Source: an uncultured Gammaproteobacteria bacterium (GTDB lineage Bacteria; Patescibacteriota; Patescibacteriia; Patescibacteriales; WJLG01). From it: 64,000 nucleotides of DNA. The stretch spans positions 64,019 through 128,018 of the forward strand of contig CAYNAR010000001.1 in NCBI GenBank assembly GCA_964395625.1, written 5' to 3'. Positions 43,286 through 56,403 of the stretch are shown here, one piece after another. Made by a program: the position numbers and the translations under genes. The notes under the pieces were generated by a model. It was not told the DNA's origin. It saw only the letters and a list, made by a program, of their open reading frames with translations, and did no database searches. How positions within the stretch are numbered: the stretch's first letter is position 1; every line of letters starts with the position of its first letter.

Positions 43286-43418
43286 TTGTTTTAAAGTCTT
43301 TTTTATGCTAAGGTTAGATTTAATAATAAAACAGACAAGTTTGATCACATTCCGGAGGGACTAATGAGATGGACGATAAAGATTTGAACAAGGCAAGATG
43401 TGGCCTTGTTTTTGTTTT
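43286..43418 (+). promoter_or_regulatory. F2 module copy a: promoter TTGTTT-17-TGcTAAGGT, RBS plus 7-codon mini-ORF (43364-43387), terminator (43388-43418)
   Basis: GGAGGG-4nt-ATGAGATGGACGATAAAGATTTGA abuts stem ACAAGGC/GCCTTGT plus T run; 3' ~60 nt identical in copy b. Confidence 0.6.
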
Positions 43419-43436
43419 CTCGTTAATCTTTATAAA

Positions 43437-43895
43437 ATGAATATCATTATCACTAAACCTCAAGATGAGGAAATAGATATAGTTAAAGATGTTACCGAGA
43501 AAGCCTATAAAGAACCGTATCATGAAAACAGTCTAATCACCCAATTCAAGGAAGCCGATGATTTGAGAGAGAAATTCGTTAACGGTGAAATCGGCATAGT
43601 CGTTGCCCGTATTAATGATCAAATAGTTGGCTCGGTTAGATACAAGATAAAAGAAACCGGTGAATTGTATCTATTCAAATTAGCCGTCTTGAAAGAGTTT
43701 AGAAAAAATGGCATAGCTTCGAAGCTTCTATTGGCAATAGAAGAAGAGGCGAGAAGAATTAATATTTTAACAATAAAGCTGGATTGCGCTCAAGAAAAAT
43801 TCCTGCCGCCATTTTATGAAAGACACGGATATAAAATAGATGAAATCAGAGAACACGGCGATCATCATGATGTCTATATGTCGAAAGTCGTTTGA
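43437..43895 (+). CDS. GNAT-family N-acetyltransferase
   Basis: Start MNIIITK; LAVLKEFRKNGIASKLLLAIEEEA (motif A R/QxxGxA); YERHGYK. Confidence 0.8.
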   Translation: MNIIITKPQDEEIDIVKDVTEKAYKEPYHENSLITQFKEADDLREKFVNGEIGIVVARINDQIVGSVRYKIKETGELYLFKLAVLKEFRKNGIASKLLLAIEEEARRINILTIKLDCAQEKFLPPFYERHGYKIDEIREHGDHHDVYMSKVV

Positions 43896-44119: not shown

Positions 44120-44752
44120 ATGATTTATGCTTATATAGATGAATCTGGTAATCTTGGCTACAATGAAGGATATTTTATTATTGCCATGTTATCTTCCAAT
44201 AATCCGAAGCGACTAAAAAATATAATAAAATCATTTTGCGCCTATAAATCATTGTCAGAAGTTCATGCAACCGACCTATCTTTCCCTGATAAGCAATACT
44301 TGGTAAACAAACTAGTAAAGCAAAAGGATTACAGCATTTCCTATGTCATTGCCGACAAAATGATGATTGAAAATAAAAAATTATTTGATAATAACAACAT
44401 ACTTTTTAATTATCTTTTCTCTTTTTTAGTTAAAGATATTATTGCTGCCAATACGGGCGATATAGTTTTGCATTTAGATAATAGAACGCAAAAAGTAGCG
44501 TCAGCTAATTCGTTAAAGGATTATATACATATAAAAGCCTTTGCCGAGTGGGGGTTTGATAAAAATCTTGTGATAAGCTATATAGATTCAAAACATTCCA
44601 AGGCTGTGCAAATGGCCGATTTGGTAGCCAACTGCATACATCGCAAGTATCGTCATGGCGTAAGTGATTTTTATTCGCGCTTAAATATTGTGAAGTCCAT
44701 CAAATTTCCAAGTTTAAGTTTTAGAGAAAATTTATTTTTAAAAGATAGTTGA
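44120..44752 (+). CDS. DUF3800-family protein
   Basis: N-terminal MIYAYIDESGNLG; C-terminal Q.ADLVAN region. Confidence 0.7.
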   Translation: MIYAYIDESGNLGYNEGYFIIAMLSSNNPKRLKNIIKSFCAYKSLSEVHATDLSFPDKQYLVNKLVKQKDYSISYVIADKMMIENKKLFDNNNILFNYLFSFLVKDIIAANTGDIVLHLDNRTQKVASANSLKDYIHIKAFAEWGFDKNLVISYIDSKHSKAVQMADLVANCIHRKYRHGVSDFYSRLNIVKSIKFPSLSFRENLFLKDS

Positions 44753-44782: not shown

Positions 44783-44876
44783 ATACATAAATCCTATAGG
44801 GAGCTCTAAGGAGTAAGCGGCGTTTCCGCCGTCGAACTATAGGTAGTTGTGAAAACACCCTGAGGGGTGTTTTTTA
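44783..44876 (+). ncRNA. Candidate small RNA (about 90 nt) downstream of DUF3800
   Basis: Closing helix CCTATAG(44793-99)/CTATAGG(44837-43), inner hairpin CGGCG-TTTC-CGCCG, terminator ACACCC-TGAG-GGGTGT plus T5. Confidence 0.45.
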
Positions 44877-45012
44877 GTATAACCTAAGGCTTGTTTTTGG
44901 TTCCTAGAAGGATTTAGGCAGGGAGGGGGTATTTATATTATCCTGAAAAATAGGCGGTTTTCAGGCTATTTTGGGGCCTGCAAAACGCTTGTAGTTTCTA
45001 TTTTTCATCTAT
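44841..45012 (+). repeat. R1 repeat copy 4 (terminator module, T1 half, part B; promoter degenerate)
   Basis: AAGGCTTGTTTTTGGTTCCTAGAAGGATTT...TATTATCCTGAAAAATAGGCGGTTTTCAGGC...CTTGTAGTTTCTATTTTTCA. Confidence 0.8.
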
Positions 45013-45015
45013 TAC

Positions 45016-45077
45016 AAAAGGGCAATATTGAAGAAGCTTGAAGAGTAATACAACAAAGCTTAACCCAAGGCCCGATA
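45016..45077 (+). repeat. Duplicate of the 3' end and downstream flank of CDS 42987-43256
   Basis: GGCAATATTGAAGAAGCTTGAAGAGTAATACAACAAAGCTTAACCCAAGGCCCGATA vs 43227-43285, nearly identical. Confidence 0.8.
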
Positions 45078-47534: not shown

Positions 47535-47650
47535 ATTTTGGGTCAAGTCTTGAATCGTGAATTTTAAAAATATTTTCCAGCACTCTGTCTGCTGGCAAAA
47601 GATCTGGCCAACCCTCCTTGACCTATTTAATGCCAGTGGACAGAATTCTG

Positions 47651-47683
47651 CCCAAAACAAGCCCCTCAAAGGCTTGTTTTGGG
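47651..47683 (+). terminator. R1 internal hairpin T1 (13-bp perfect stem)
   Basis: CCCAAAACAAGCC-CCTCAAA-GGCTTGTTTTGGG. Confidence 0.6.
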
Positions 47684-47771
47684 TTTTGGAGGGGTGAAAC
47701 AGGCTGTCATTGTGTATTTTGTCGCTCAGAAAAAGAGGGGGTTACGAGACTGTTTTAAGCCCCAAAAACAC

Positions 47772-47800
47772 TTGCAAATTATATTTTTTCGTGGTATATT
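47772..47800 (+). promoter_or_regulatory. R1 internal promoter TTGCAA-17-TGgTATATT
   Basis: Conserved in 6 R1 copies (42.2, 47.8, 48.96, 50.7, 52.0 and 54.4 kb). Confidence 0.6.
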
Positions 47801-47812
47801 ATGGCTTAAATT

Positions 47813-47839
47813 AAAAATGGCAAATATTGCCAGTTTTTT
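47813..47839. terminator. R1 internal hairpin T2 (bidirectional terminator)
   Basis: AAAAA-TGGCAA-ATA-TTGCCA-G-TTTTTT. Confidence 0.65.
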
Positions 47840-47923
47840 GTTTAAAAAAGTCTTAATTCCAGACCTGACCCCAAAATTAATTTAAACTTGTAATTTGCAT
47901 ATAGATAATATATGTATAATAGC

Positions 47924-48030: not shown

Positions 48031-48723
48031 ATGCGAGCATGCGTTTATGTTGACGGCTTCAATCTTTTTTACGGAAGCTTGAAAGGGGGTAAATATAAAT
48101 GGCTTGATATCGATAAACTTGTAAAGAATTATTTTCCTTCGTACTCAATAGAAAAAATAAAATATTTTTCCGCTCCGACTAAGGCGCGAAAAAACGATCT
48201 TAATAAACCTGTCCGGCAACAGATGTATTTTAGGGCATTAAGAACAAACCCGAACACAGAAATAATCCTCGGATCGTTTTTGGAAAATGAGGTTTGTTTT
48301 TTTGTTCCATCAAAAACTAAAAATGGCACACAGCAAAAAGCAAAAGTTTCTGTGTTAAAGAACGAAATGAGCTTGCCTTTGGTTGATCCGAATTATTTGA
48401 TAGTCAAAAAAACGGAGGAAAAAGGGTCAGACGTAAATTTAGGAGCTCATTTGGTTATGGATGCGTATGAAAAAAGATTTGACGTAGCTATTGTTGTTTC
48501 CAATGATTCAGATTTAGTTGAGCCAATTAGAATAGTTAACAATATGAACAATCTAAGAGTCAGGTTGTTAAATCCCTACCCTACAACACAAGAAAAGTTA
48601 AAGAAGGTCACGGCGAACACTGGAATAAAATACATAAGACAAAGCGTGCTACAAATTTCTCAATTCCCAGAGAACATGAAAGATATTGTTGGTTGTTTTC
48701 ATATACCGCAAAATTGGAAGTAA
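48031..48723 (+). CDS. NYN (LabA/DUF88-like) domain protein, putative RNase
   Basis: ACVYVDGFNLFYG; EKGSDVNLGAHLVMDA; DVAIVVSNDSDLVEPI. Confidence 0.75.
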   Translation: MRACVYVDGFNLFYGSLKGGKYKWLDIDKLVKNYFPSYSIEKIKYFSAPTKARKNDLNKPVRQQMYFRALRTNPNTEIILGSFLENEVCFFVPSKTKNGTQQKAKVSVLKNEMSLPLVDPNYLIVKKTEEKGSDVNLGAHLVMDAYEKRFDVAIVVSNDSDLVEPIRIVNNMNNLRVRLLNPYPTTQEKLKKVTANTGIKYIRQSVLQISQFPENMKDIVGCFHIPQNWK

Positions 48724-48753
48724 AGAGTAATATGAAATAATGGGTCTTTGTAG

Positions 48754-48990
48754 AAACAAGCCTCTTGGGGTTTGTTTTTGGTTTCTAGAGGGACACAAAG
48801 CATGTCACCCCGAGCGTAGCCGAGGGATCATAATAATTCTTACTCCTTATTATCCTGAAAAATAGGCGGTCTTAAGGCTGTTTTGGGGCTCTAGTTGTTA
48901 TTGCGAGGCCGGTATTTCCGGCCGTGGCAATCCAGTATTAAAATCACCTAAAAACACTTGCAAATTATATTTTTTCGTGGTATATTATGA
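48754..48990 (+). repeat. R1 repeat copy 6 (T1, part B with two small insertions, promoter; T2 and right end absent)
   Basis: AAACAAGCCTCTTGGGGTTTGTTTTTGGTTTCTAGAGGG ... TATTATCCTGAAAAATAGGCGG ... CTTGCAAATTATATTTTTTCGTGGTATATT. Confidence 0.85.
48958..48986 (+). promoter_or_regulatory. R1 promoter copy driving the methyltransferase-rSAM-peptide operon
   Basis: TTGCAA-17-TGgTATATT; no T2 hairpin before ATG 49051. Confidence 0.6.
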
Positions 48991-49050
48991 CTTCCTCAAA
49001 ATCGTTATAAAATAAAATTTATTTTTTGATAGTATGTTAATGCGAGACTT

Positions 49051-49521
49051 ATGAATAATTTTTTAGAAGAATTTATAAAGGAAAAATATGGATCAAACGT
49101 TGGCTCGGCTTTGGATTTTGGCGCCGGTAAAGGTGTTGATGTTCGCGAGCTACAAAAAATAGGCTGGGATGTCAAAGGCCTTGATCTTCCCAGTAATGAT
49201 CTTAACTTTCCTTATAAGACCGATAAACAAGTTGATTTTATTTATTCCATAGCAGTAATCCAGTTTATCAAAGATAAGGAAGTTTTTGTTAGAAATATTA
49301 TCGACAATCTTAAGGATGATGGTTGGTTTTTTATTTTAACCTTTTCTAAGAATGATGTTTTCTTTGGTGAGAAAGGCGGTATGTCAAAAGAAGATTTAGA
49401 AGGTCTTTTTAAAGAATTTAAAAATGTAAAAACCGAAAACAAAGATTTTTTCGATAATGACATAGGGCATAATCATTGGCATAAATTACTTATAGTAACA
49501 GGACAAAAAAGGGGGGAGTGA
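49051..49521 (+). CDS. Class I SAM-dependent methyltransferase
   Basis: ALDFGAGKGVDVRELQKIGWDVKGLDL; DFIYSIAVIQFI; LKDDGWFFILTF. Confidence 0.7.
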   Translation: MNNFLEEFIKEKYGSNVGSALDFGAGKGVDVRELQKIGWDVKGLDLPSNDLNFPYKTDKQVDFIYSIAVIQFIKDKEVFVRNIIDNLKDDGWFFILTFSKNDVFFGEKGGMSKEDLEGLFKEFKNVKTENKDFFDNDIGHNHWHKLLIVTGQKRGE

Positions 49522-50270
49522 TGAGTAGATTTTATTTGCAAATGCACATTACAAATAAGTGTAATAATCGATGCTCGCATTGTTATCAGTCTGACTATGG
49601 CGGAGAAGATATGAGTGTCGATTCGGCAAAGTTGATTTTTAAAGAGCTTTCTTCGATTTGTAAAAAAGTTTCAGTAAGGTCGGAAGTTTCAATTACTGGA
49701 GGTAGTCCCGTATTGGCGGATGGTTTTATTGAAATAGTCGAGACAGCCAGGGAGCTTTGCGATGTCGTAAGGATTCTTGGCAATCCAGAAGGATTGAGTG
49801 ATGAAATAGTTTTGTTTTTAAAAAAGGTCGGAGTGGATGGTTTTCAACTGTCCCTTGATGGCTCAAGACAGACCCACGATTCTTTAAGAAGTAGCGGTAG
49901 TTTTGACAGGACTATAAGTGCTATGAAGAAGCTATCGTCGGAAGGAATTTTAGTTTTTGTTAATTCTACTTTATCTGATAATAATCGCCACGAAATAAGT
50001 CTTATTAATGAAATCGCAGAAGCTAATGGCGCCAGTCATGTTTCTTTTGAAGAGTATGTTCCGTATGGTTTGGATTGTTCCGGAAAATGTAATTGTAGTT
50101 TGGGCTCCGCCACAATGGCCATTTTGCCGGATCTTACAATTATGGCTTGTCGAAGGACTCCGTCTAGTATTCTTGGAAAATGGACCAAGGAGCGTGGATT
50201 ATTTTATCATTTAGCCAAAAATGAAAAAATGATAGAGTATAGGAGAAGGAAGGCGTTGAAAAATGCATAA
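49518..50270 (+). CDS. Radical SAM enzyme with short C-terminal Cys-rich (twitch/partial SPASM-like) region
   Basis: Overlaps upstream stop (GTGATG); CNNRCSHC = CX3CX2C; ITGGSPVL; LSLDG; C-terminal CSGKCNCSLGSATMAILPDLTIMAC. Confidence 0.8.
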   Translation: MMSRFYLQMHITNKCNNRCSHCYQSDYGGEDMSVDSAKLIFKELSSICKKVSVRSEVSITGGSPVLADGFIEIVETARELCDVVRILGNPEGLSDEIVLFLKKVGVDGFQLSLDGSRQTHDSLRSSGSFDRTISAMKKLSSEGILVFVNSTLSDNNRHEISLINEIAEANGASHVSFEEYVPYGLDCSGKCNCSLGSATMAILPDLTIMACRRTPSSILGKWTKERGLFYHLAKNEKMIEYRRRKALKNA

Positions 50271-50306
50271 TATAATCAACCTTAAAAAAGAAAGGAGTAA
50301 GTGCCC

Positions 50307-50414
50307 ATGTCACAAGAGCTTGAACTTCAAAACTTGAAGCTGGCTGGCGTTTTTGATGAAGCTTGTACGCTTTGTATCAATGTCGGCACCGGTGGCGGAT
50401 CGGATAATGATTAA
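50307..50414 (+). CDS. Candidate RiPP precursor peptide (35 aa), not in ORF track
   Basis: RBS AGGAG; MSQELELQNLKLAGVFDEACTLCINVGTGGGSDND; 36 nt after the rSAM stop; terminator follows. Confidence 0.6.
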   Translation: MSQELELQNLKLAGVFDEACTLCINVGTGGGSDND

Positions 50415-50430
50415 TTATCATATCCTCCTG

Positions 50431-50459
50431 GACTACAACGTTCGTTGTAGTCCTTTTTA
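50431..50459 (+). terminator. Intrinsic terminator of RiPP operon 1
   Basis: GGACTACAAC-GTTC-GTTGTAGTCC plus T5. Confidence 0.85.
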
Positions 50460-50530
50460 TTTAGTGATTTAAAATATGGTTGTTGTGAGTAAGACAAAAC
50501 AGTGTTGAGACGGAATCGCTAAAAGTAAAG

Positions 50531-50801
50531 TTCTGATTCCAAAATGCCAAAAATAAGCCTCCTGTGAGCTGCACCCCGTTTAGTAGACACGAATAAAATA
50601 CTAGCGGTTCTCTAAAAGGGTTTAGAAGGGGTCTGGCAATTTGTATTATCCTGAAAAGTAGGCGGTTTTCAGGCCATTTTGTGGCCTTGAAAGCGCTTGC
50701 AAATTCTATTTTTTCGTGGTATATTATGGCTTAAATTAAAAATGGCAAATATTGCCAGTTTTTTGTTTAAAACCTTATAGCTAAAGACCTGGCCCCAAAA
50801 T
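50531..50801 (+). repeat. R1 repeat copy 7 (degenerate left part; part B, promoter, T2, right end)
   Basis: TATTATCCTGAAAAGTAGGCGGTTTTCAGGCC...CTTGCAAATTCTATTTTTTCGTGGTATATTATGGCTTAAATTAAAAATGGCAAATATTGCCAG...AGACCTGGCCCCAAAAT. Confidence 0.85.
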
Positions 50802-50825
50802 TTGAAAACACCCTGAGCAAACTAA

Positions 50826-50861: not shown

Positions 50862-51218
50862 CTATTCAGTATCTTTGGATTTTATTATATTAGCATAATG
50901 CACCGTATTTCCGTTTACCTTTTCATTTTCTATAATCGATCCCGACTTAAATTGCATTAATTCTTGAATAAGGTGTTCGGTCTCGGGGTAAATAGCTATT
51001 CTGGCTATTTCACTAACTTCTTCAGGACTTAATGAGTCAATAATATTTTTGCGAATAATATTGAACACTTCTTCTCTGTTTTCATCATTTGCCCAGGGAG
51101 CACAAAAAACAATCGTCCATTTATCAACGAATTCATCCATTTTGAGTAAAGCAAAAATCGTAACTTCGCTTTTTTCCTCCTCAATTTTTTCTATTATTTC
51201 TTTAAATTTTTCTAACAT
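50862..51218 (-). CDS. Hypothetical acidic protein, downstream partner of the HEPN gene
   Basis: Overlaps the HEPN ORF by 7 nt; no nucleotidyltransferase motif seen. Confidence 0.55.
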   Translation of the reverse strand: MLEKFKEIIEKIEEEKSEVTIFALLKMDEFVDKWTIVFCAPWANDENREEVFNIIRKNIIDSLSPEEVSEIARIAIYPETEHLIQELMQFKSGSIIENEKVNGNTVHYANIIKSKDTE

Positions 51219-51667
51219 ATAATATTTTTCTCTATAAGTGGGATTATTCCATCTGGCTTTTTCGTGAGAAAAGTATATAAATTTTTTGTAATTTTTTCAT
51301 CGAACTGAGTAAGCGTATCATACCTAATGTCAGTCCATCTTCCTATTTTTGAGTATTCTTGTGTGAAACCCGACCAACTACTAGCGCCTTCTCCGGACAG
51401 CTCAAATATTTCAGAAGCGCCGGAAATAGGGAGCAACAAATCAAAATCATGTGTCAAAAAATAACTAGTTATCTTTGGATTTTTAGTTTTTTTTATTTCT
51501 GGATAATTTTTTAAATTAAGCACTTTGCATGCCGATGCCTTCAATATGCATTCTAACACAAACCCCATTAGATATACAGCAACGCCCCATTCCTGATTGG
51601 ATATTAAAATATCGACCGTTTTAAGGCGATTTTTAGCTAAGGTAAGAAAATCATTGCAATTAGCCAT
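51212..51667 (-). CDS. HEPN-domain protein
   Basis: FLTLAKNRLKTVDILISNQEWGVAVYLMGFVLECILKA; THDFDLLL; C-terminal IRYD, matching classical HEPN helix layout. Confidence 0.55.
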   Translation of the reverse strand: MANCNDFLTLAKNRLKTVDILISNQEWGVAVYLMGFVLECILKASACKVLNLKNYPEIKKTKNPKITSYFLTHDFDLLLPISGASEIFELSGEGASSWSGFTQEYSKIGRWTDIRYDTLTQFDEKITKNLYTFLTKKPDGIIPLIEKNIIC

Positions 51668-51792
51668 AATAATTTTAAAATAGCATAAAAATATTATTAA
51701 GGCAAGTTTGCAGAAGTGACCATAAAAACAGATCTTTAACGATATTTACTTGGAAATATTTGTTTTTTTATGTTACGCTAAAGCTTAATATG

Positions 51793-52026
51793 AAAATATT
51801 TTCCAGTATTCTGTCCGCCGGCAAAGAGCTGGCCGACCCTCCTCGGCCTGCTTGATGCCAGTGGACAGAATTCTGCCAAAAACAGGCCTCGCAAGGGCTT
51901 GTTTTTGGTTTCTGGAAGGATTTAATCGTGGTTGTGGTGTTTGTATTATCCTGAAAAATAGGCGGTTTTAAGGCTATTTTGGGGTCTTGAAAGCACTTGC
52001 AATTTCTATTTTTTCGTGGTATAAAA
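51793..52026 (+). repeat. R1 repeat copy 8 (part A, T1, part B, promoter; T2 and right end absent)
   Basis: AAAATATTTTCCAGTATTCTGTCCGCCGGCAAAGAGCTGGCCGACCCTCCTCGGCC...CTTGCAATTTCTATTTTTTCGTGGTATAAA. Confidence 0.85.
51997..52025 (+). promoter_or_regulatory. R1 promoter copy (TTGCAA-17-TGgTATAAA) driving the rSAM-peptide-HExxH operon
   Basis: No T2 hairpin; RBS AGGAGG and GTG 52077 lie 50 nt downstream. Confidence 0.6.
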
Positions 52027-52076
52027 AATAGAAATGTTTTTTGATAGAGCACTTTAAATTTTTACAGGAGGTTTTT

Positions 52077-53384
52077 GTGATTTACAGAAGTTTAACAGCT
52101 CCAATATCTTGCCAAATTGAATTGACAACGGCTTGTCAGCTTAAGTGTGTTCATTGTTATAATCACTGGAGATGCTTAAGTTGCGACAACGATTTGTTTA
52201 TGACCGAAAAAGAGGCGGAGTTTGTCGCTAATCAGATTATTGATGCAAAGGTATTTCAGGTGACTCTAACCGGTGGAGAACCTTTGCTTAACCGCAAGGC
52301 ATTATTTCGTATTCTTGATTTACTGAAAGATGAAAGAATTGAAATCGGGTTAAATTCTAACTTGATTAGTCTGAGTGAGAAGGATGTTGATATTCTGCAT
52401 GCTGGAAATGTTAAATCCGTTTTAACTTCGTTTGCTTCATCTAGCGAAAGTGTGAATGATAGTATAATGAAGCTTGACGGGGCGCAAAAAAGAATAATCA
52501 AAGGGATCGAGTTGGTTGTGGAAACTGGTTTTAGTGTTGGTTGTAGCATGGTTGTCACCAAAATGAATCTTGATGATGTTGTTGAGACCGGATTATTCCT
52601 TCAGAGTCTTGGTGTGACTAATTTTTACGCCACAAAGGGTTCCCCACCGCTAAACTCCAAAGGTTTTGATAACTTTATGCTTTCCGGCGATGAATTGTTG
52701 AAGGTGATGGATGATTTGAGCTTATTAAAGGAAAGACACGGCCTTGAAGTTGGGATTTTGGAATGTTACCCGGTTTGTTTTTATTGTTTCCAGGAAAAAT
52801 ACCCTTTTACTGTCGGTAAGCGTTGTAGTGCTGGGTCGACGGCTTGTGCTATTGGTTCTGCTGGTGACGTTAGGGCTTGTACTCATTCAGACGTTATTTA
52901 CGGTAATATCTTTAAAGGAGGTTTAAAGGAAGCGTGGGGTGAAATGAGGGACTGGAGAGATGGGGCTAGGATTTCCTCGACTTGTAGAACGTGTGTTTAT
53001 TTTCCTGAATGTAGCGGTGGATGTAGAGTTGATGCTGAATTTTGCGGTGGTGCTAAGGATTCCATGGATCCTTATGCTGATAAAAATCAGATAGCAAGTG
53101 TCAGCTTGCTTAAAAAAGATGTATTGGTTGAATTTTCCGAAGAACAAAGATTTTTTGTAAAAAAAATAAAATTTAGAAAAGAGATTGACTCTGTTTTATG
53201 CGCAAGCCTTGATCGCGTGCATAGTCCGGTTTTGTTGACGGTGGATATGTTTGATTTTCTTGTTGAAATGAGTGAAAAGACCTTTACATTGTCGGAAATG
53301 TCAAGTATAATCAACTTGGATATTAATTCTTGTAAGGAATTGTGTTCATGTCTTTTTAAGGATGGATTGCTAAGTGTTCTTTAA
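52077..53384 (+). CDS. Radical SAM/SPASM-domain peptide maturase with C-terminal PqqD/RRE-like extension
   Basis: GTG 52077 with RBS AGGAGG (track TTG 52041 unlikely); CQLKCVHC; TGGEPLL; CSAGSTACAIGSAGDVRAC; CRTCVYFPECSGGC...C (CX2CX5CX3C). Confidence 0.85.
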   Translation: MIYRSLTAPISCQIELTTACQLKCVHCYNHWRCLSCDNDLFMTEKEAEFVANQIIDAKVFQVTLTGGEPLLNRKALFRILDLLKDERIEIGLNSNLISLSEKDVDILHAGNVKSVLTSFASSSESVNDSIMKLDGAQKRIIKGIELVVETGFSVGCSMVVTKMNLDDVVETGLFLQSLGVTNFYATKGSPPLNSKGFDNFMLSGDELLKVMDDLSLLKERHGLEVGILECYPVCFYCFQEKYPFTVGKRCSAGSTACAIGSAGDVRACTHSDVIYGNIFKGGLKEAWGEMRDWRDGARISSTCRTCVYFPECSGGCRVDAEFCGGAKDSMDPYADKNQIASVSLLKKDVLVEFSEEQRFFVKKIKFRKEIDSVLCASLDRVHSPVLLTVDMFDFLVEMSEKTFTLSEMSSIINLDINSCKELCSCLFKDGLLSVL

Positions 53385-53403
53385 AAAGAAAGGAGGTAAT
53401 TGC

Positions 53404-53544
53404 ATGAAAGAGAAGAAGAGCTTCGGATACGTTTCTTTGTTGCTCGATACATCTGTCGAGAATAAAAAAGACGATTCTAAAGCAGCTGTTTCGATGTCTT
53501 GTTACTGCAATTGTAATAGTTGCAATTGTTATGTGACAAAGTAA
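53404..53544 (+). CDS. Candidate Cys-rich RiPP precursor peptide (46 aa), not in ORF track
   Basis: RBS GGAGG; MKEKKSFGYVSLLLDTSVENKKDDSKAAVSMSCYCNCNSCNCYVTK; starts 19 nt after the rSAM stop. Confidence 0.7.
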   Translation: MKEKKSFGYVSLLLDTSVENKKDDSKAAVSMSCYCNCNSCNCYVTK

Positions 53545-53588: not shown

Positions 53589-54299
53589 ATGCTAAAAAAG
53601 ATAGGTTTAAAATTTGTTTCAAATAAAAATAACGATGTGGAGGAATTTTTTCGTCTCTGGCATGGGCACGAAAATCTTAGAGTTGGCTTAATGGATTTTG
53701 TAAATAACAATTCGAACAATATCATACACCCCGATATTGCCCCGTCGAAAGATATTTTGGCTTTGGCTGTGAAAAGTAGATACGAGATGGATGAGAAAAA
53801 GATCGTTAAAACGTTATTTTTTGCGGAGAACAAATGGTGCGAAATAGAACCGTTATTTTATGATTTAGTCGGCAAGATATTTAAGAAGGATTTTTCCTTT
53901 GATAAAATAATAAAGGTCTATGTTTCAGTGCTTCCGTTTTTTGTAAGAAATTTGGATGAAGGGCGTGTCTCTATTCCGTATAACACAAGCAATGAAAACG
54001 AGCCAGTTTTTGTTTTAGCTCATGAGCTCTTGCATGTTATTTTCTATTCTTACATTCATGATAATTATGAAGAATTAAGAGAAAGTCTTTCTAGTAAGAA
54101 GGTTTGGGATTTTTCTGAAGCTATAAACGTCGTTATACAGGGGCAGGTTGAGTGGGTGAATATTTTTAAAATAGAGCCCAGCTTTTATCCCGAGCACGAA
54201 GCGTTGTACTTAGCACTGAATAAAAAGTGGGAAAAAGATAAAGACATAGATTCTTTGATAAGGGATTTTTTGGTTAATGTGGCAGAACGGCAAAATTAA
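53589..54299 (+). CDS. Putative HExxH zinc metallopeptidase
   Basis: VFVLAHELLHVIFYSY; same operon as rSAM and precursor. Confidence 0.5.
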   Translation: MLKKIGLKFVSNKNNDVEEFFRLWHGHENLRVGLMDFVNNNSNNIIHPDIAPSKDILALAVKSRYEMDEKKIVKTLFFAENKWCEIEPLFYDLVGKIFKKDFSFDKIIKVYVSVLPFFVRNLDEGRVSIPYNTSNENEPVFVLAHELLHVIFYSYIHDNYEELRESLSSKKVWDFSEAINVVIQGQVEWVNIFKIEPSFYPEHEALYLALNKKWEKDKDIDSLIRDFLVNVAERQN

Positions 54300-54518
54300 A
54301 AACAAGCCTTTTGGGGCTTGTTTTTGGTTTCTGGAAGGATTTAATCGTGGTTGCGGTGTTTGTTTGTCCTGAAAAATAGGTGGTTTTAAGGCCATTTTGG
54401 GGTCTTGAAAACACTTGCAATTTCTATTTTTTTGTGTTATATTATGGCTTAATCTAAAAATGGCAAATATTGCCAGTTTTTTGTTTAAAAAGTCTTAATC
54501 ACAAATCCGACCTCAAAA
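54297..54518 (+). repeat. R1 repeat copy 9 (T1, part B, promoter, T2, degenerate right end)
   Basis: AAACAAGCCTTTTGGGGCTTGTTTTTGGTTTCTGGAAGGATTTAATCGTGG...CTTGCAATTTCTATTTTTTTGTGTTATATTATGGCTT...TGGCAAATATTGCCAG. Confidence 0.85.
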
Positions 54519-54528
54519 CAAAGTATTT

Positions 54529-56403
54529 ATGCAACTAATTAAAAAAATTTCGTTAAAAGGTTTGTTTTGTTTTGTAATATTGCCTATTTTTTTAAGTTTA
54601 TTTTCTTTACCAAAAACAGAAACAAGGGAAATAAATATAAATAAAGAAGATTTTCCCTACATACTTAATTATGATTGGGGGAACAACAAGGATGAACATT
54701 CGCTTAAGTATGTGTTTTTAAAGATGTTGGATTCAACATTAAAATTGGAATTTTATAACATATGCTTAAACAATGATTCGTATATAGAGAAAAATGGTAA
54801 AATAATTTTAAGAGATGATTTAGTGCCGCCAATGGGAAATCTAAGCGTTGACGTATATCCTTTAGCTGAAAATTTCAAAATATATAATTACTTTCAATTT
54901 TTAAAATATAGAAACAAGGACTTTATTGATTACAGCGGAAAAGGATTAGAATATAGTAAGACCTTGATTTCGGAGCCCGGGAAAACAAGATGTTTGAAGC
55001 AATTAACAGATGAAGATGGTTTTTTGTTTACTGGCATAAAAATAAAGACTCTTGGCGCCACCTGGATTGGTATTAAGGATGATTCTGGGGGACATTCGGT
55101 GACCGTAGACACTGATACGTATGTGGAATTTTTTGGTAATTCCAAAATATTTATAAAAACAAACTGGTTGGCGTTATTAATTAAATTTTTTATTTTATTT
55201 TTTCTTTTTGAAGGAATAATTCTCATGTTATCGTCTGTGGTAGAAAAAGTAATTAAAAAACAGATAGCACGATTTAAACAAATAGAAAATCCAATGAAAA
55301 AAATCCTAATTCTTAACTACGAATTCCCGCCCTTGGGCGGCGGTGCAGCCAACGCCACATACTACCTATTAAAGGAATTTTCCAAATTCCCGGATTTAGA
55401 ATTGGATTTAGTAACTTCTTCTGTCGATAAGTTTAGAGTCGAGCAATTCAGTGACAATATTCGCATTCATTACTTAGATATAAACAAAAAAGGCAATCTT
55501 CACTACCAAAGCATTAAAGATCTTTTAACTTATTCTTGGAAAGCCTATAAATACTGTAAAGAATTAAAGAAAAAAGAAAAGTTTGATTTGATTCACGCTT
55601 TTTTTGGCATACCTTGTGGTTACATAGCGATGAAATTGAAAATTCCATACATTATAAGCTTAAGAGGTACGGATGTTCCATTTCATAAAAAAAGATTTTA
55701 TTGGCTGGATAAGCTGGTGTTTAAAAATTTAAGCAAGAAAGTTTGGAAAAATGCAAAAGCTGTTATTTCCAATTCTAAGGGGCTTAAAGAACAAGCGCAA
55801 AAAACAAATGAAAAACAAATAATAGATGTTATTTGCAACGGCGTTGACACTGATTTTTTTTGCCCATTATTGAATAAGCAAGTTGGCAACAAAATAAAAT
55901 TAATTTCCGTCGGCAGATTAGCCCCGGAAAAAGGTTATGATTATCTAATTAAAGCATTTGGTGGGCTTAAAGATTTTGAATTAACACTGATCGGCTCCGG
56001 AAAAGCAGAAGAAGATTTAAAAACCCTAGCAAATGAATATAAAGTTAAGGTTAATTTTCTTGGTCGGCAAGAAAAAGAAGTTGTTAAAAAAGAATTTCAA
56101 AATTCAGATATATACATTTTGTCATCACTAAAAGAGGGGATGTCTAACTCCATGATGGAGGGCATGGCCTGTGGCTTGCCGGTAATAGCAACAAACGTTA
56201 GTGGTAGCGAAGAATTAATAAAAGGCAATGGATTTATTGTTGAAAAAGGTGATTCCAAGGCTATTTCTGAAAAGCTTAAGGTTTTTCAAGATGATAAAAA
56301 TTTGATTTTAACAATGGGTAAAATTTCCAGGGATTTAGCGGAAAAAATGAGCTGGAAAAATGTTGCCGATGAATATTTAAATATCTATAATTTAAAACCA
56401 TGA
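54529..56403 (+). CDS. Fusion ORF: N-terminal unknown TM domain plus C-terminal GT4 glycosyltransferase (internal ATG 55294)
   Basis: MKKILILNYEFPPLGGGAANATYYLL begins at residue 256; SLKEGMSNSMMEGMACGLPVIATNVSG. Confidence 0.7.
   Translation: MQLIKKISLKGLFCFVILPIFLSLFSLPKTETREININKEDFPYILNYDWGNNKDEHSLKYVFLKMLDSTLKLEFYNICLNNDSYIEKNGKIILRDDLVPPMGNLSVDVYPLAENFKIYNYFQFLKYRNKDFIDYSGKGLEYSKTLISEPGKTRCLKQLTDEDGFLFTGIKIKTLGATWIGIKDDSGGHSVTVDTDTYVEFFGNSKIFIKTNWLALLIKFFILFFLFEGIILMLSSVVEKVIKKQIARFKQIENPMKKILILNYEFPPLGGGAANATYYLLKEFSKFPDLELDLVTSSVDKFRVEQFSDNIRIHYLDINKKGNLHYQSIKDLLTYSWKAYKYCKELKKKEKFDLIHAFFGIPCGYIAMKLKIPYIISLRGTDVPFHKKRFYWLDKLVFKNLSKKVWKNAKAVISNSKGLKEQAQKTNEKQIIDVICNGVDTDFFCPLLNKQVGNKIKLISVGRLAPEKGYDYLIKAFGGLKDFELTLIGSGKAEEDLKTLANEYKVKVNFLGRQEKEVVKKEFQNSDIYILSSLKEGMSNSMMEGMACGLPVIATNVSGSEELIKGNGFIVEKGDSKAISEKLKVFQDDKNLILTMGKISRDLAEKMSWKNVADEYLNIYNLKP

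What the first reader, a model, noticed from the sequence alone, without database searches (positions are those of the whole stretch)
48958..50459. Candidate RiPP operon 1: methyltransferase, 250-aa radical SAM, unannotated 35-aa peptide
The R1 promoter (here without T2) is followed by a class I methyltransferase. An rSAM overlaps it (GTGATG) and has CX3CX2C plus a C-terminal CX4CXC...C auxiliary-cluster-like region. After a 36-nt gap comes an AGGAG RBS and the ORF MSQELELQNLKLAGVFDEACTLCINVGTGGGSDND (50307-50414), then a perfect terminator.

The peptide looks like an acidic/helical leader (ELELQNLKLAGVFDE) plus a core with CTLC and a Gly-rich acidic tail. The gene set fits sactipeptide/ranthipeptide-type thioether formation with an added methylation. 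The peptide is absent from the ORF track.
Basis: partly seen in the sequence, partly recalled or inferred. Interest (0 to 1): 0.75.

Follow-up and report, generated by a model that had tools for sequence, protein, structure and literature searches.

The report
Conserved peptide-modifying radical SAM operon
This is a real three-gene operon (small methyltransferase, unusually short radical SAM enzyme, 35-residue Cys-x-x-Cys peptide) from a widespread, unnamed and unstudied family of peptide-modification systems found mostly in ultra-small (CPR/DPANN) microbes, and its chemistry is still unknown.

Summary

The short ORF is a real gene. An ORF with the motif L-x3-G-[FYMV]...C-x2-C lies beside the rSAM gene in all 7 close relatives (47-57% identity; degenerate in L004) and in about 20 more distant systems. 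Window versus L009 core: 10 synonymous and 1 non-synonymous codon change in 16.

The methyltransferase is a recurrent partner, in about 21 of about 30 systems. It occurs as this 150-170-aa upstream form or a ~205-aa downstream form whose best matches are TehB chalcogen methyltransferases. The two forms are homologous (hhalign 99.3%).

The rSAM belongs to none of the curated families. Its best matches are the uncharacterised ACGX-system enzyme and then SbtM (Cys to thiooxazole). SkfB is the best solved structure. It has lost the second half of the SPASM domain and keeps a twitch-like hairpin with three conserved Cys.

The RiPP reading is strongly supported. The specific sacti/ranthipeptide thioether chemistry is not established, and SbtM-like oxidation of Cys followed by S-methylation is at least as likely. 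I found no literature on this family.

The parts
48958..48986 (+). Sigma-70-like promoter (TTGCAA, 17 nt, TG-n-TATATT). It is part of a 47-nt element repeated 5 times in the 44-56 kb island.
   Evidence: (family D4, copy 48947-48993, 96% identical to the reference copy). Function is inferred from the consensus match only.
49051..49521 (+). Small class I SAM methyltransferase, 156 aa. It has motif I LDFGAGKG and an invariant H140-x-H142-x-H144 near the C-terminus. It is a shortened form of the TehB-like methyltransferase that partners this rSAM family.
   Evidence: Methyltransf_23, 1.7e-14. (alignment A3 of 8 upstream partners). (hhalign against the ~205-aa partners: 99.3%, E 2.9e-20). (the long partners' best hits are TehB).
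49521..50270 (+). Radical SAM enzyme, 249 aa from ATG 49521 (250 aa if GTG 49518). The rSAM cluster motif is C14-x3-C18-x2-C21. A truncated SPASM (twitch-like) C-terminus carries C186, C192 and C210 (conserved) plus C190 (seen only in the window protein among the aligned relatives). There is no N-terminal RRE-like extension.
50293..50297 (+). Shine-Dalgarno AGGAG, 9 nt upstream of the peptide start codon.
   Evidence: An AGGAG/GGAGG-type RBS (GGGGG in L010) precedes the peptide ORF in all 9 loci examined.
50307..50414 (+). Precursor peptide gene, 35 aa. The leader-like part is MSQELELQNLKLAGVFD, with conserved L10 and G14. The core is EACTLCINVGTGGGSDND, with conserved C20 and C23.
50430..50461 (+). 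Intrinsic terminator: GGACTACAACG-TT-CGTTGTAGTCC followed by a T-run. It ends the operon.
   Evidence: A stem-loop plus T-run follows the peptide ORF in the close relatives read (L001, L004, L005, L007); L009 and L012 show an inverted repeat without a clean T-run.

Best explanation
A tricistronic operon for a ribosomally made, post-translationally modified peptide, from an uncharacterised sister clade of the ACGX-system and SbtM radical SAM maturases.

One promoter drives methyltransferase, rSAM and peptide, and the terminator after the peptide gene ends the transcript. These signals are present in the sequence; their function is inferred.

The peptide's N-terminal amphipathic segment (L-x3-G-[F/V]) docks on the enzyme. 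The enzyme has no RRE-like extension, so binding would be direct (inferred).

The rSAM cleaves SAM at the C14/C18/C21 cluster. The resulting radical abstracts a hydrogen in the invariant C-x2-C core. The single remaining auxiliary cluster (C186/C192/C210, with possibly one open iron site) binds or oxidises the substrate (inferred).

The most likely chemistry is oxidation at a Cys beta-carbon, as in the nearest characterised relative SbtM, which turns Cys into a 5-thiooxazole. A short-range Cys thioether is the main alternative.

The TehB-like methyltransferase then methylates the product, most plausibly on sulfur (inferred).

No dedicated protease or exporter is encoded nearby, so the fate of the product is open.
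For: Operon signals: promoter, overlapping methyltransferase stop and rSAM start, RBS, terminator.

Conserved gene order: methyltransferase-rSAM-peptide in 6 of 7 close systems, with 0-2 nt between the methyltransferase and rSAM genes in the four systems checked (L001, L005, L007, L012).

Peptide:
- The family spans 26 sequences with an invariant G and first Cys. L and the second Cys are nearly invariant, and the tails are hypervariable.
- Two tandem copies occur in L001 and L043.
- Purifying selection: 10 synonymous versus 1 non-synonymous codon change.
- Profile hits at E<0.01 occur only next to the rSAM gene, including at least 12 systems not used to build the profile.

Enzyme:
- TIGR04340 ACGX at 146.5 bits and SbtM at 110 bits are the top two of 77 NCBIfam hits.
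- The eight relatives of this family tested, long and short, give the same ranking.
- SkfB is the best solved relative by sequence (4e-18; profile 5.8e-25) and by fold (TMq 0.75).
- The CSLG...MAC hairpin aligns to the CteB auxiliary-cluster hairpin.
- The AF2 model has pLDDT 89.7.

Methyltransferase:
- A methyltransferase is adjacent in about 21 of about 30 systems.
- In the Pfam census of 25 systems, methyltransferase families matched up to 16 of 124 neighbour proteins. TehB matched 8 (best 9.5e-29) and TPMT 3.
- The long partners hit TehB models at 65-112 bits and TehB structures at 7e-17 to 7e-13.
- The window's short form is homologous to them over its whole length.

SbtM chemistry (loss of 4 H, thiooxazole) is taken from PMC11002830.
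Against: - No chemistry can be shown by computation.
- The protein fails every curated family cutoff (146.5 against 400; 110 against 350). Function transfer from SbtM is therefore weak.
- The best structural match, SkfB, is a thioether-forming enzyme.
- A three-Cys auxiliary site resembles CteB, also a thioether former.
- The window methyltransferase itself scores only about 17-18 bits on TehB models. Its acceptor atom is unknown, and its AF2 model was too poor to use (pLDDT 55.7).
- One close relative (L004) lacks the methyltransferase and has C-T-H-S instead of C-x2-C.
- About 9 systems have no methyltransferase within the sequence available.
- No protease or transporter is enriched nearby, which is atypical for secreted RiPPs.
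Confidence: 0.6

Rival explanations
1. The rSAM is a sactipeptide- or ranthipeptide-type enzyme that links a Cys sulfur of CTLC to an alpha, beta or gamma carbon of a nearby residue (-2 Da per link). The methyltransferase adds a separate decoration, for example an O-methyl ester on the acidic tail.
For: - SkfB, a twitch-type sactisynthase, is the best solved relative by sequence and by fold.
- Three conserved Cys in the auxiliary hairpin suggest an open iron site of the kind reported to bind substrate Cys in CteB (alignment; CteB mechanism from my own knowledge).
- The L004 variant keeps Cys1 but has Ser at position 4. This is compatible with position 4 being only a carbon acceptor.
- Many tails end in Asp.
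Against: - SkfB, StsB and PapB models score far below the ACGX and SbtM models and far below their own cutoffs.
- There is no RRE-like N-terminal domain.
- No conserved acceptor residue exists outside the two Cys.
- The partner methyltransferase is TehB-like. It shows no particular resemblance to known RiPP methyltransferases beyond weak hits (for example the daptide methyltransferase model at about 30-38 bits).
Confidence: 0.25
2. The modified peptide is not a secreted natural product. It would be an intracellular cofactor or metal- or chalcogen-binding peptide, analogous to the PQQ or mycofactocin logic, made and used inside the cell.
For: - No peptidase, ABC transporter or other exporter is enriched among 124 neighbouring ORFs of 25 systems.
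- The peptides are very short (27-58 aa), with only about 10-20 residues ahead of the core.
- The partner methyltransferase belongs to the chalcogen-detoxifying TehB group.
- True ACGX loci carry an MDR-type dehydrogenase-like ORF after the rSAM. I assigned that only from its N-terminal sequence; it was not scanned individually.
Against: - Hypervariable core tails and tandem duplicated precursors are typical of antagonistic RiPPs rather than cofactors.
- Some relatives carry MFS plus GNAT genes on a plasmid-like contig (L010), or GNAT genes (L004; 4 GNAT hits in the census). This fits export and self-protection.
- The operon sits in a low-GC accessory island.
Confidence: 0.12
3. The short ORF is incidental. 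On this reading the rSAM and methyltransferase act on a small molecule or another protein.
For: The ORF is only 35 codons and matches no Pfam or NCBIfam model.
Against: - It is conserved in position, strand, RBS and motif across about 28 systems down to 28% enzyme identity.
- Synonymous changes outnumber non-synonymous changes 10 to 1.
- An independent gene caller reported it in several relatives.
Confidence: 0.03

Closest known systems
ACGX system (NCBIfam TIGR04340 rSAM/SPASM protein with ACGX-repeat peptides); curated but, as far as I could find, experimentally uncharacterised
   Same: It is the best-scoring family for the window rSAM and for all tested relatives. Both have no N-terminal extension, an rSAM core beginning at about residue 5, and a short Cys-containing peptide encoded next to the enzyme (ACGX peptides seen in L021, L022 and L024).
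   Different: - Scores are 146 bits (window) and 210-255 bits (long relatives) against a cutoff of 400. A true ACGX enzyme scores 572.
- The peptide has one C-x2-C and an L-x3-G-F leader, not ACGX repeats.
- The window enzyme lacks the CX2CX5CX2-3C...C half of SPASM.
- The methyltransferase partner is absent from the true ACGX loci seen here, which instead carry an HxlR-like ORF upstream and an MDR dehydrogenase-like ORF downstream. Both assignments were read from the sequence and not scanned individually.
SbtM, the thio(seleno)oxazole-forming radical SAM maturase (TIGR04082; Lewis et al. 2021, summarised in PMC11002830)
   Same: It is the second-best family for the window enzyme and for all nine other proteins tested. 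It is the only biochemically characterised member of this neighbourhood. It acts on a Cys (or Sec) of a short peptide.
   Different: - The score is 110 bits against a cutoff of 350.
- SbtM has about 195 extra N-terminal residues and a full SPASM domain; the query aligns only to model positions 199-357.
- No selenocysteine signal was seen in the peptide.
- The thiooxazole product here is inference only.
SkfB, the twitch-domain sactisynthase of sporulation killing factor (PDB 6efn)
   Same: It is the best solved relative by sequence (4e-18; profile 5.8e-25) and by fold (Foldseek E 3e-13, TMq 0.75). It also has a partial SPASM ('twitch') domain with a single auxiliary cluster.
   Different: - Identity is 26%, and TIGR04403 scores 73.6 bits against a cutoff of 300.
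- SkfB is 410 aa with an N-terminal peptide-binding region.
- The sequence alignments stop before the C-terminal Cys region.
- The substrate and operon (skfA-H) are unrelated.
TehB / TPMT chalcogen methyltransferases
   Same: The ~205-aa methyltransferase partners of this rSAM family have TehB as best NCBIfam, Pfam and PDB match. The window's 156-aa methyltransferase is homologous to them end to end, including the C-terminal His motif.
   Different: - All scores are below the TehB cutoffs (65-112 bits against 218-303). The window methyltransferase scores only about 17-18 bits.
- It lacks about 20-35 residues, including the segment between strands 2 and 4.
- The genomic context is a peptide-maturation operon, not tellurite resistance.

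Membership tests
Radical SAM superfamily | CX3CX2C cluster motif and a PF04055 match above the gathering score | tested here: met
   C14-x3-C18-x2-C21. PF04055 scores 64.6 bits against 29.5.
ACGX system rSAM (TIGR04340) | HMM score at or above the curated cutoff of 400 bits | tested here: not met
   146.5 bits. Long relatives score 210-255. A true ACGX control (L021) scores 572.
ACGX system rSAM (TIGR04340) | Adjacent peptide with tandem Ala-Cys-Gly-X repeats | tested here: not met
   The peptide has a single A-C-T-L-C and no repeats. Real ACGX peptides are seen in L021, L022 and L024. The peptide matches no NCBIfam model.
SbtM thio(seleno)oxazole maturase (TIGR04082) | HMM score at or above 350 bits over the full 516-position model | tested here: not met
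   110 bits, matching model positions 199-357 only.
SbtM thio(seleno)oxazole maturase (TIGR04082) | Converts a peptide Cys/Sec to a thio(seleno)oxazole (-4 Da) | not testable with these tools
   Needs in vitro or in vivo reconstitution with MS/NMR.
SPASM-domain rSAM | Seven-Cys C-terminal domain (CX9-15GX4C ... CX2CX5CX3C ... C) and a PF13186 match | tested here: not met
   No PF13186 hit for the window protein, whereas the neighbouring 447-aa rSAM does hit it. Alignment A1 shows the CX2CX5CX2C...C block present in the 334-341-aa relatives and absent in the short clade.
Twitch-type rSAM (SkfB/BtrN/MoaA-like partial SPASM) | Only the first half of SPASM is present: a beta-hairpin flanked by Cys ligands for one auxiliary cluster | tested here: met
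   C186...C192-SLG-x13-MAC210 is conserved. It aligns to the CteB CGSG...PC hairpin. Strands 198-201 and 206-208 appear in the AF2 model. The best fold match is SkfB. Actual cluster binding is not testable here.
Sactipeptide / ranthipeptide maturases | Match to a curated sacti- or ranthipeptide maturase model (SkfB, StsB, PapB and others) above its cutoff | tested here: not met
   SkfB scores 73.6 against 300 and StsB 45.3 against 625. PapB is not among the top 25 hits.
Sactipeptide / ranthipeptide maturases | N-terminal RRE or peptide-binding domain preceding the rSAM core | tested here: not met
   The rSAM core starts at residue 5 and the cluster motif at residue 14. The protein has only 249 aa.
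Sactipeptide / ranthipeptide maturases | Cys sulfur to alpha, beta or gamma carbon thioether in the product | not testable with these tools
   Requires MS/MS and NMR of the modified peptide.
RiPP precursor peptide (generic) | A short ORF co-located with the maturase, conserved across homologs, with a conserved recognition segment and a variable core | tested here: met
TehB tellurite/selenite methyltransferase | HMM score above the curated cutoffs (218-303 bits) | tested here: not met
   The window methyltransferase scores 16.6-18.3 bits. Long partners score 65-112 bits. They are related but not members.
Class I SAM-dependent methyltransferase | Rossmann-type motif I (D/E-x-G-x-G-x-G), an acidic residue after strand 2, and a Pfam methyltransferase match above cutoff | tested here: met
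   LDFGAGKG and D45 are invariant. PF13489 scores 54.3 against 27.

The most novel reading that the evidence does not exclude
This operon represents a new RiPP class that is widespread in CPR bacteria and DPANN archaea. A minimal, RRE-less rSAM of the ACGX/SbtM clade oxidises the Cys residues of a C-x2-C core, for example to 5-thiooxazoles made anaerobically (the counterpart of the oxygen-dependent MNIO route). A dedicated TehB-derived methyltransferase then S-methylates the new heteroaromatic thiol. The product would carry a methylthio-oxazole or a similarly unprecedented S-methylated motif. The 249-aa enzyme would be among the smallest peptide-modifying rSAM maturases known to me.
Probability: 0.2. 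Interest if true: 0.8.

Novelty: new variant of a known kind. Interest (0 to 1): 0.6.

Why it matters
The find defines a three-component system: a peptide with an L-x3-G-F leader and a C-x2-C core, an ACGX/SbtM-related rSAM, and a TehB-like methyltransferase.

- It recurs in about 30 independent loci, mainly from Patescibacteria and Nanoarchaeota.
- It has no name in Pfam or NCBIfam, and I found no paper on it.
- The wider rSAM group that the profile retrieves has 514 representatives at E<1e-30. How many of these belong to this family rather than to ACGX, SbtM or other SPASM enzymes was not determined.

These organisms have tiny genomes and live attached to hosts, so a conserved peptide-modification operon is likely to matter for their interactions.

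The window variant is the most reduced form: a 249-aa enzyme with one auxiliary cluster, plus a 156-aa methyltransferase. That makes it an attractive minimal system for working out the chemistry. It may also help assign a function to the long-curated but unstudied ACGX family.

Tried and rejected
- Exact-sequence look-up of the 250-aa GTG-start product found nothing. Gene callers use the ATG start (P0001).
- NCBIfam and Pfam scans of 8 peptides at E up to 10 gave no family.
- The literature searches gave nothing on this family. Terms were ACGX/TIGR04340, SbtM/thiooxazole, Patescibacteria plus RiPP, selenobiotic, and thiooxazole plus methyltransferase. The original SbtM paper is not held, so its chemistry is cited second-hand from PMC11002830.
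It reached pLDDT 55.7, so I ran no fold search on it.
- The profile search of the peptide family in the protein database returned only 7 unnamed or 'hypothetical' proteins. Small ORFs are rarely called.
- The viral-contig scan found no relatives.
- I looked for a peptide feature that tracks methyltransferase presence, to locate the methyl acceptor. None was found; C-x2-C and acidic tails occur with and without the methyltransferase.
- I considered whether the repeated intergenic modules are integron attC sites. By eye, the inverted repeats do not fit the RYYYAAC/GTTRRRY consensus, and I did not pursue it.
Full report
**1. The observation**

- A sigma-70-like site, TTGCAA-17-TATATT with an upstream TG, lies at 48958-48986. 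It sits inside a 47-nt element present five times between 44 and 56 kb (family D4; alignment).
- ORF 49051-49521 encodes a 156-aa class I methyltransferase (PF13489, 54 bits against a cutoff of 27).
- Its TGA stop (49519-49521) overlaps both GTG 49518 and ATG 49521 of the next ORF, a radical SAM (rSAM) protein (PF04055, 64.6 bits).
- After a 36-nt gap come AGGAG (50293-50297) and the ORF 50307-50414, which encodes MSQELELQNLKLAGVFDEACTLCINVGTGGGSDND.
- A 10-bp stem-loop with a T-run follows at 50430-50461.

Two details need correcting.
- The independent gene call (P0001, 249 aa, MSRF...) uses ATG 49521. An exact look-up of the GTG-start product finds nothing.
- The C-terminal Cys pattern is C186-X3-C190-X-C192-X17-C210, not CX4CXC.

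**2. Is the short ORF real?**

Yes. I fetched the contigs of the seven closest rSAM homologs (47-57% identity, 244-300 aa). In every one, a short ORF with its own RBS follows the rSAM gene on the same strand:
- L007: MFLEMQELKEFGFFDEKCTLCIDVGSEGGSDGN
- L009: MEELKAKGYFGKHCSLCINVGTGGGSDND
- L001: MEELKKAGFFSSQCSICQ...CKICDGSK and MKDLKSAGFFAVNCSICQKTPGDGPGTAD (two copies)
- L005: MKELMKQLKEDGMFELNCCICSSEGGGPAGPGPGDGKK
- L012: MMDELKKAGYFKSDYQICSEE...AQCTICQATPGDD
- L004: a degenerate MKTLKDRGFMNVHCTHSLSGL

In L001, L004, L005 and L007 a stem-loop plus T-run follows the ORF. L009 and L012 show an inverted repeat there without a clean T-run.

Between the window and L009, the 16 core codons differ at 10 synonymous and only 1 non-synonymous position. 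The enzymes of these two loci are only 54% identical.

One scan of species-representative genomes and one of metagenomes gave 44 more loci. A profile built from 13 peptides hit ORFs at E<0.01 only directly beside the rSAM gene, among 4413 ORFs of at least 18 aa. These hits included at least 12 systems not used to build the profile.

In a 26-sequence alignment, the G of the G-F pair and the first Cys are invariant. The L four residues before that G and the second Cys (C-x2-C) are nearly invariant. Everything after the core is hypervariable. This is the leader-plus-core pattern of a RiPP precursor.

Sources label these peptides 'hypothetical protein' or do not call them at all. None matches Pfam or NCBIfam.

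**3. The radical SAM enzyme**

Family placement:
- NCBIfam ranks TIGR04340 (rSAM/SPASM protein of the ACGX system) first at 146.5 bits and SbtM (thio(seleno)oxazole maturase) second at 110 bits. SkfB follows at 73.6 bits. All are far below their cutoffs of 400, 350 and 300.
- The ranking is the same for longer relatives: ACGX 210-255 bits and SbtM 115-176 bits, both over the full length. A genuine ACGX enzyme from a Bacteroidales locus scores 572.
- The family is therefore a sister group of ACGX and SbtM, and a member of neither.

Structure:
- Among solved structures, SkfB is best by sequence (4e-18; profile 5.8e-25).
- SkfB is also best by fold (Foldseek E 3e-13, TMq 0.75, on an AF2 model with pLDDT 89.7).
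- Alignment A1 shows that the 334-341-aa relatives carry a full SPASM domain (...CGLG-x13-C...CX2CX5CX2C...C).
- The window clade has lost a roughly 50-residue insert and the whole CX2CX5CX2C...C block.
- It retains D-C186, C192-SLG and MA-C210. The profile aligns C192...C210 to the CGSG...PC hairpin of CteB.
- So it is a twitch-like enzyme with one auxiliary cluster and three conserved Cys ligands. C190 is specific to the window protein.
- There is no N-terminal extension that could be an RRE.

Abundance:
- An exhaustive profile search finds 514 cluster representatives at E<1e-30, mostly 330-370 aa.
- Only a handful are of the ~250-aa form. The short form is therefore a rare derivative within a large group of related rSAM enzymes.

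**4. The methyltransferase**

- Six of the seven close systems have the same 150-160-aa methyltransferase immediately upstream. In the four systems checked (L001, L005, L007, L012) it lies 0-2 nt from the rSAM start.
- Several full-SPASM relatives also have this upstream form (L014, L019, L031, L039).
- Many others have a ~200-215-aa methyltransferase just downstream of the peptide gene (L025, L032-34, L036, L045, L053, L054) or nearby on the opposite strand (L018, L020, L043).
- In total, about 21 of about 30 distinct non-ACGX systems have a methyltransferase next to the pair.
- The long form's best NCBIfam hits are TehB (65-112 bits). Its best solved relatives are TehB proteins (3m70 at 7e-17, 2xva at 7e-13, aligned over residues 22-178).
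- In the census of 124 neighbouring ORFs, the Pfam TehB model hits 8 and TPMT hits 3.
- A profile-profile comparison shows the window-type short form is homologous to the long form along its whole length (99.3%, E 2.9e-20). This includes the C-terminal H-x-H motif. The short form lacks the segment between strands 2 and 4.
- TehB and TPMT methylate chalcogen nucleophiles (established knowledge). This makes S-methylation the most economical guess, but the acceptor is not shown.
- The AF2 model of the short methyltransferase was too poor to use (pLDDT 55.7).

**5. Context**

- The window is a bacterial chromosome. A PBP2/FtsI-like protein and MurF lie at 20-24 kb.
- GC content falls from about 44% (1-32 kb) to about 33% (42-60 kb).
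- In this low-GC stretch, six copies of a roughly 200-nt module separate small accessory cassettes. Each module is a terminator-like hairpin, a conserved 42-nt element and the promoter-like element.
- The cassettes include GNAT, DUF3800, unknowns, a NYN-domain protein, this operon, a two-gene pair on the minus strand, and a second rSAM/SPASM gene with a 56-aa Cys-rich ORF. Glycosyltransferases follow.
- Short-read contigs of the same strain from three other samples start exactly inside the promoter repeat.
- Relatives come mainly from Patescibacteria (including Moraniibacteriota and Paceibacterota) and Nanoarchaeota. A few come from Spirochaetota, other bins, and one plasmid-like contig (RepA_N, relaxase).
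- None was found in viral contigs.
- Neighbours show no enrichment of peptidases or ABC exporters. GNAT acetyltransferases (4), a second rSAM (3) and MFS transporters (2) recur.

**6. Mechanism**

Shown:
- the gene order;
- the conservation and coding status of the peptide;
- the enzyme's family placement and domain loss;
- the recurrent TehB-like partner.

Inferred:
- The L-x3-G-F segment is the recognition element.
- The C-x2-C is the site of modification.
- The three-Cys auxiliary cluster either binds a substrate thiolate, as reported for CteB (my own knowledge), or acts as the electron sink.

For the chemistry I lean slightly toward hydrogen abstraction at a Cys beta-carbon with heterocyclisation. 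SbtM is the only characterised enzyme in the neighbourhood and is always the second-best model (chemistry from PMC11002830). Such a product also bears a heteroaromatic thiol, which is the kind of nucleophile TehB/TPMT-like enzymes methylate.

It is supported by the SkfB fold match and the CteB-like three-Cys site. The L004 variant (C-T-H-S, no methyltransferase) is compatible with either reading.

**7. Novelty**

The kind, an rSAM-dependent RiPP, is known. This particular family is not described in any paper I could find. Its peptide is in no model library, and its enzyme fails all curated family cutoffs.

The window instance is the most reduced variant: 249 aa, a single auxiliary cluster, no RRE, and a 156-aa methyltransferase. 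I rate it a new variant of a known kind with unknown chemistry.

Its interest is moderate to high for RiPP and rSAM enzymology and for CPR biology. It is not paradigm-changing unless the chemistry turns out to be new.

Noticed in passing
window 44840-45060, 47560-47880, 48730-49050, 50540-50810, 51790-52045, 54280-54530: Six copies of a roughly 200-nt intergenic module separate small accessory gene cassettes in a low-GC stretch (33% against 44%). Each module is a terminator-like hairpin (AAACAAGCC...GGCTTGTTT), a conserved 42-nt element (TATTATCCTGAAAAATAGGCGGTTTTAAGGC...) and a promoter-like TTGCAA-17-TATATT. Short-read assemblies of the same strain break inside it. It looks like a cassette array with portable terminator-promoter junctions. 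How it arises is unexplained.
   Followed up: partly
window 52041-53544 (and 53589-54299): A second candidate RiPP operon. It has a 447-aa rSAM with a true SPASM domain (best NCBIfam hit mycofactocin MftC-like, 86.8 bits, below cutoff). A 56-aa ORF ending ...MSCYCNCNSCNCYVTK overlaps its stop, and a 236-aa protein with no family match follows.
   Followed up: partly
L004 1666-1731 and 1792-2187: This is the only close relative without the upstream methyltransferase. Its peptide is shortened to MKTLKDRGFMNVHCTHSLSGL (Ser replaces the second Cys), and a GNAT acetyltransferase follows directly. It may be a decaying or re-tooled system, and could be informative about which Cys is essential.
   Followed up: no
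L010 221-7867 (and L011): A 37%-identical full-SPASM relative sits on a plasmid-like contig (RepA_N, MobC, relaxase). The peptide MNNKKIKEQIAKLRKDGFIDKKVCSTCFYN lies upstream, and an MFS transporter plus GNAT lie downstream. This hints at an exported product with self-protection.
   Followed up: no
L019 4623-5714; L045 5458-6387: Some relatives carry a second rSAM gene just downstream of the peptide or methyltransferase. The L019 one is a 363-aa rSAM with a SPASM-like Cys pattern. This suggests multi-step radical tailoring in parts of the family.
   Followed up: no
L021 2408-3878, L022 3700-5020, L024 2011-3251: These are genuine ACGX systems in Bacteroidales bins. An HxlR-like ORF is followed by a peptide with ...ACGSACGAGD... 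repeats, the rSAM (572 bits on TIGR04340 for L021) and an MDR-type dehydrogenase-like ORF, with no methyltransferase. The regulator and dehydrogenase labels come from reading the sequences only. The loci served as a control and show how different the curated family's context is.
   Followed up: partly
window 50862-51667, minus strand: Two overlapping minus-strand ORFs (151 aa and 118 aa) lie between the two rSAM operons, with no Pfam hit. The arrangement resembles a toxin-antitoxin or HEPN/MNT-type pair, but this was not tested.
   Followed up: no
window 48031-48723: A NYN-domain (predicted RNase) protein is encoded immediately upstream of the operon, in its own cassette. DUF3800 (44120-44752) and GNAT (43398-43895) cassettes lie further upstream.
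   Followed up: no
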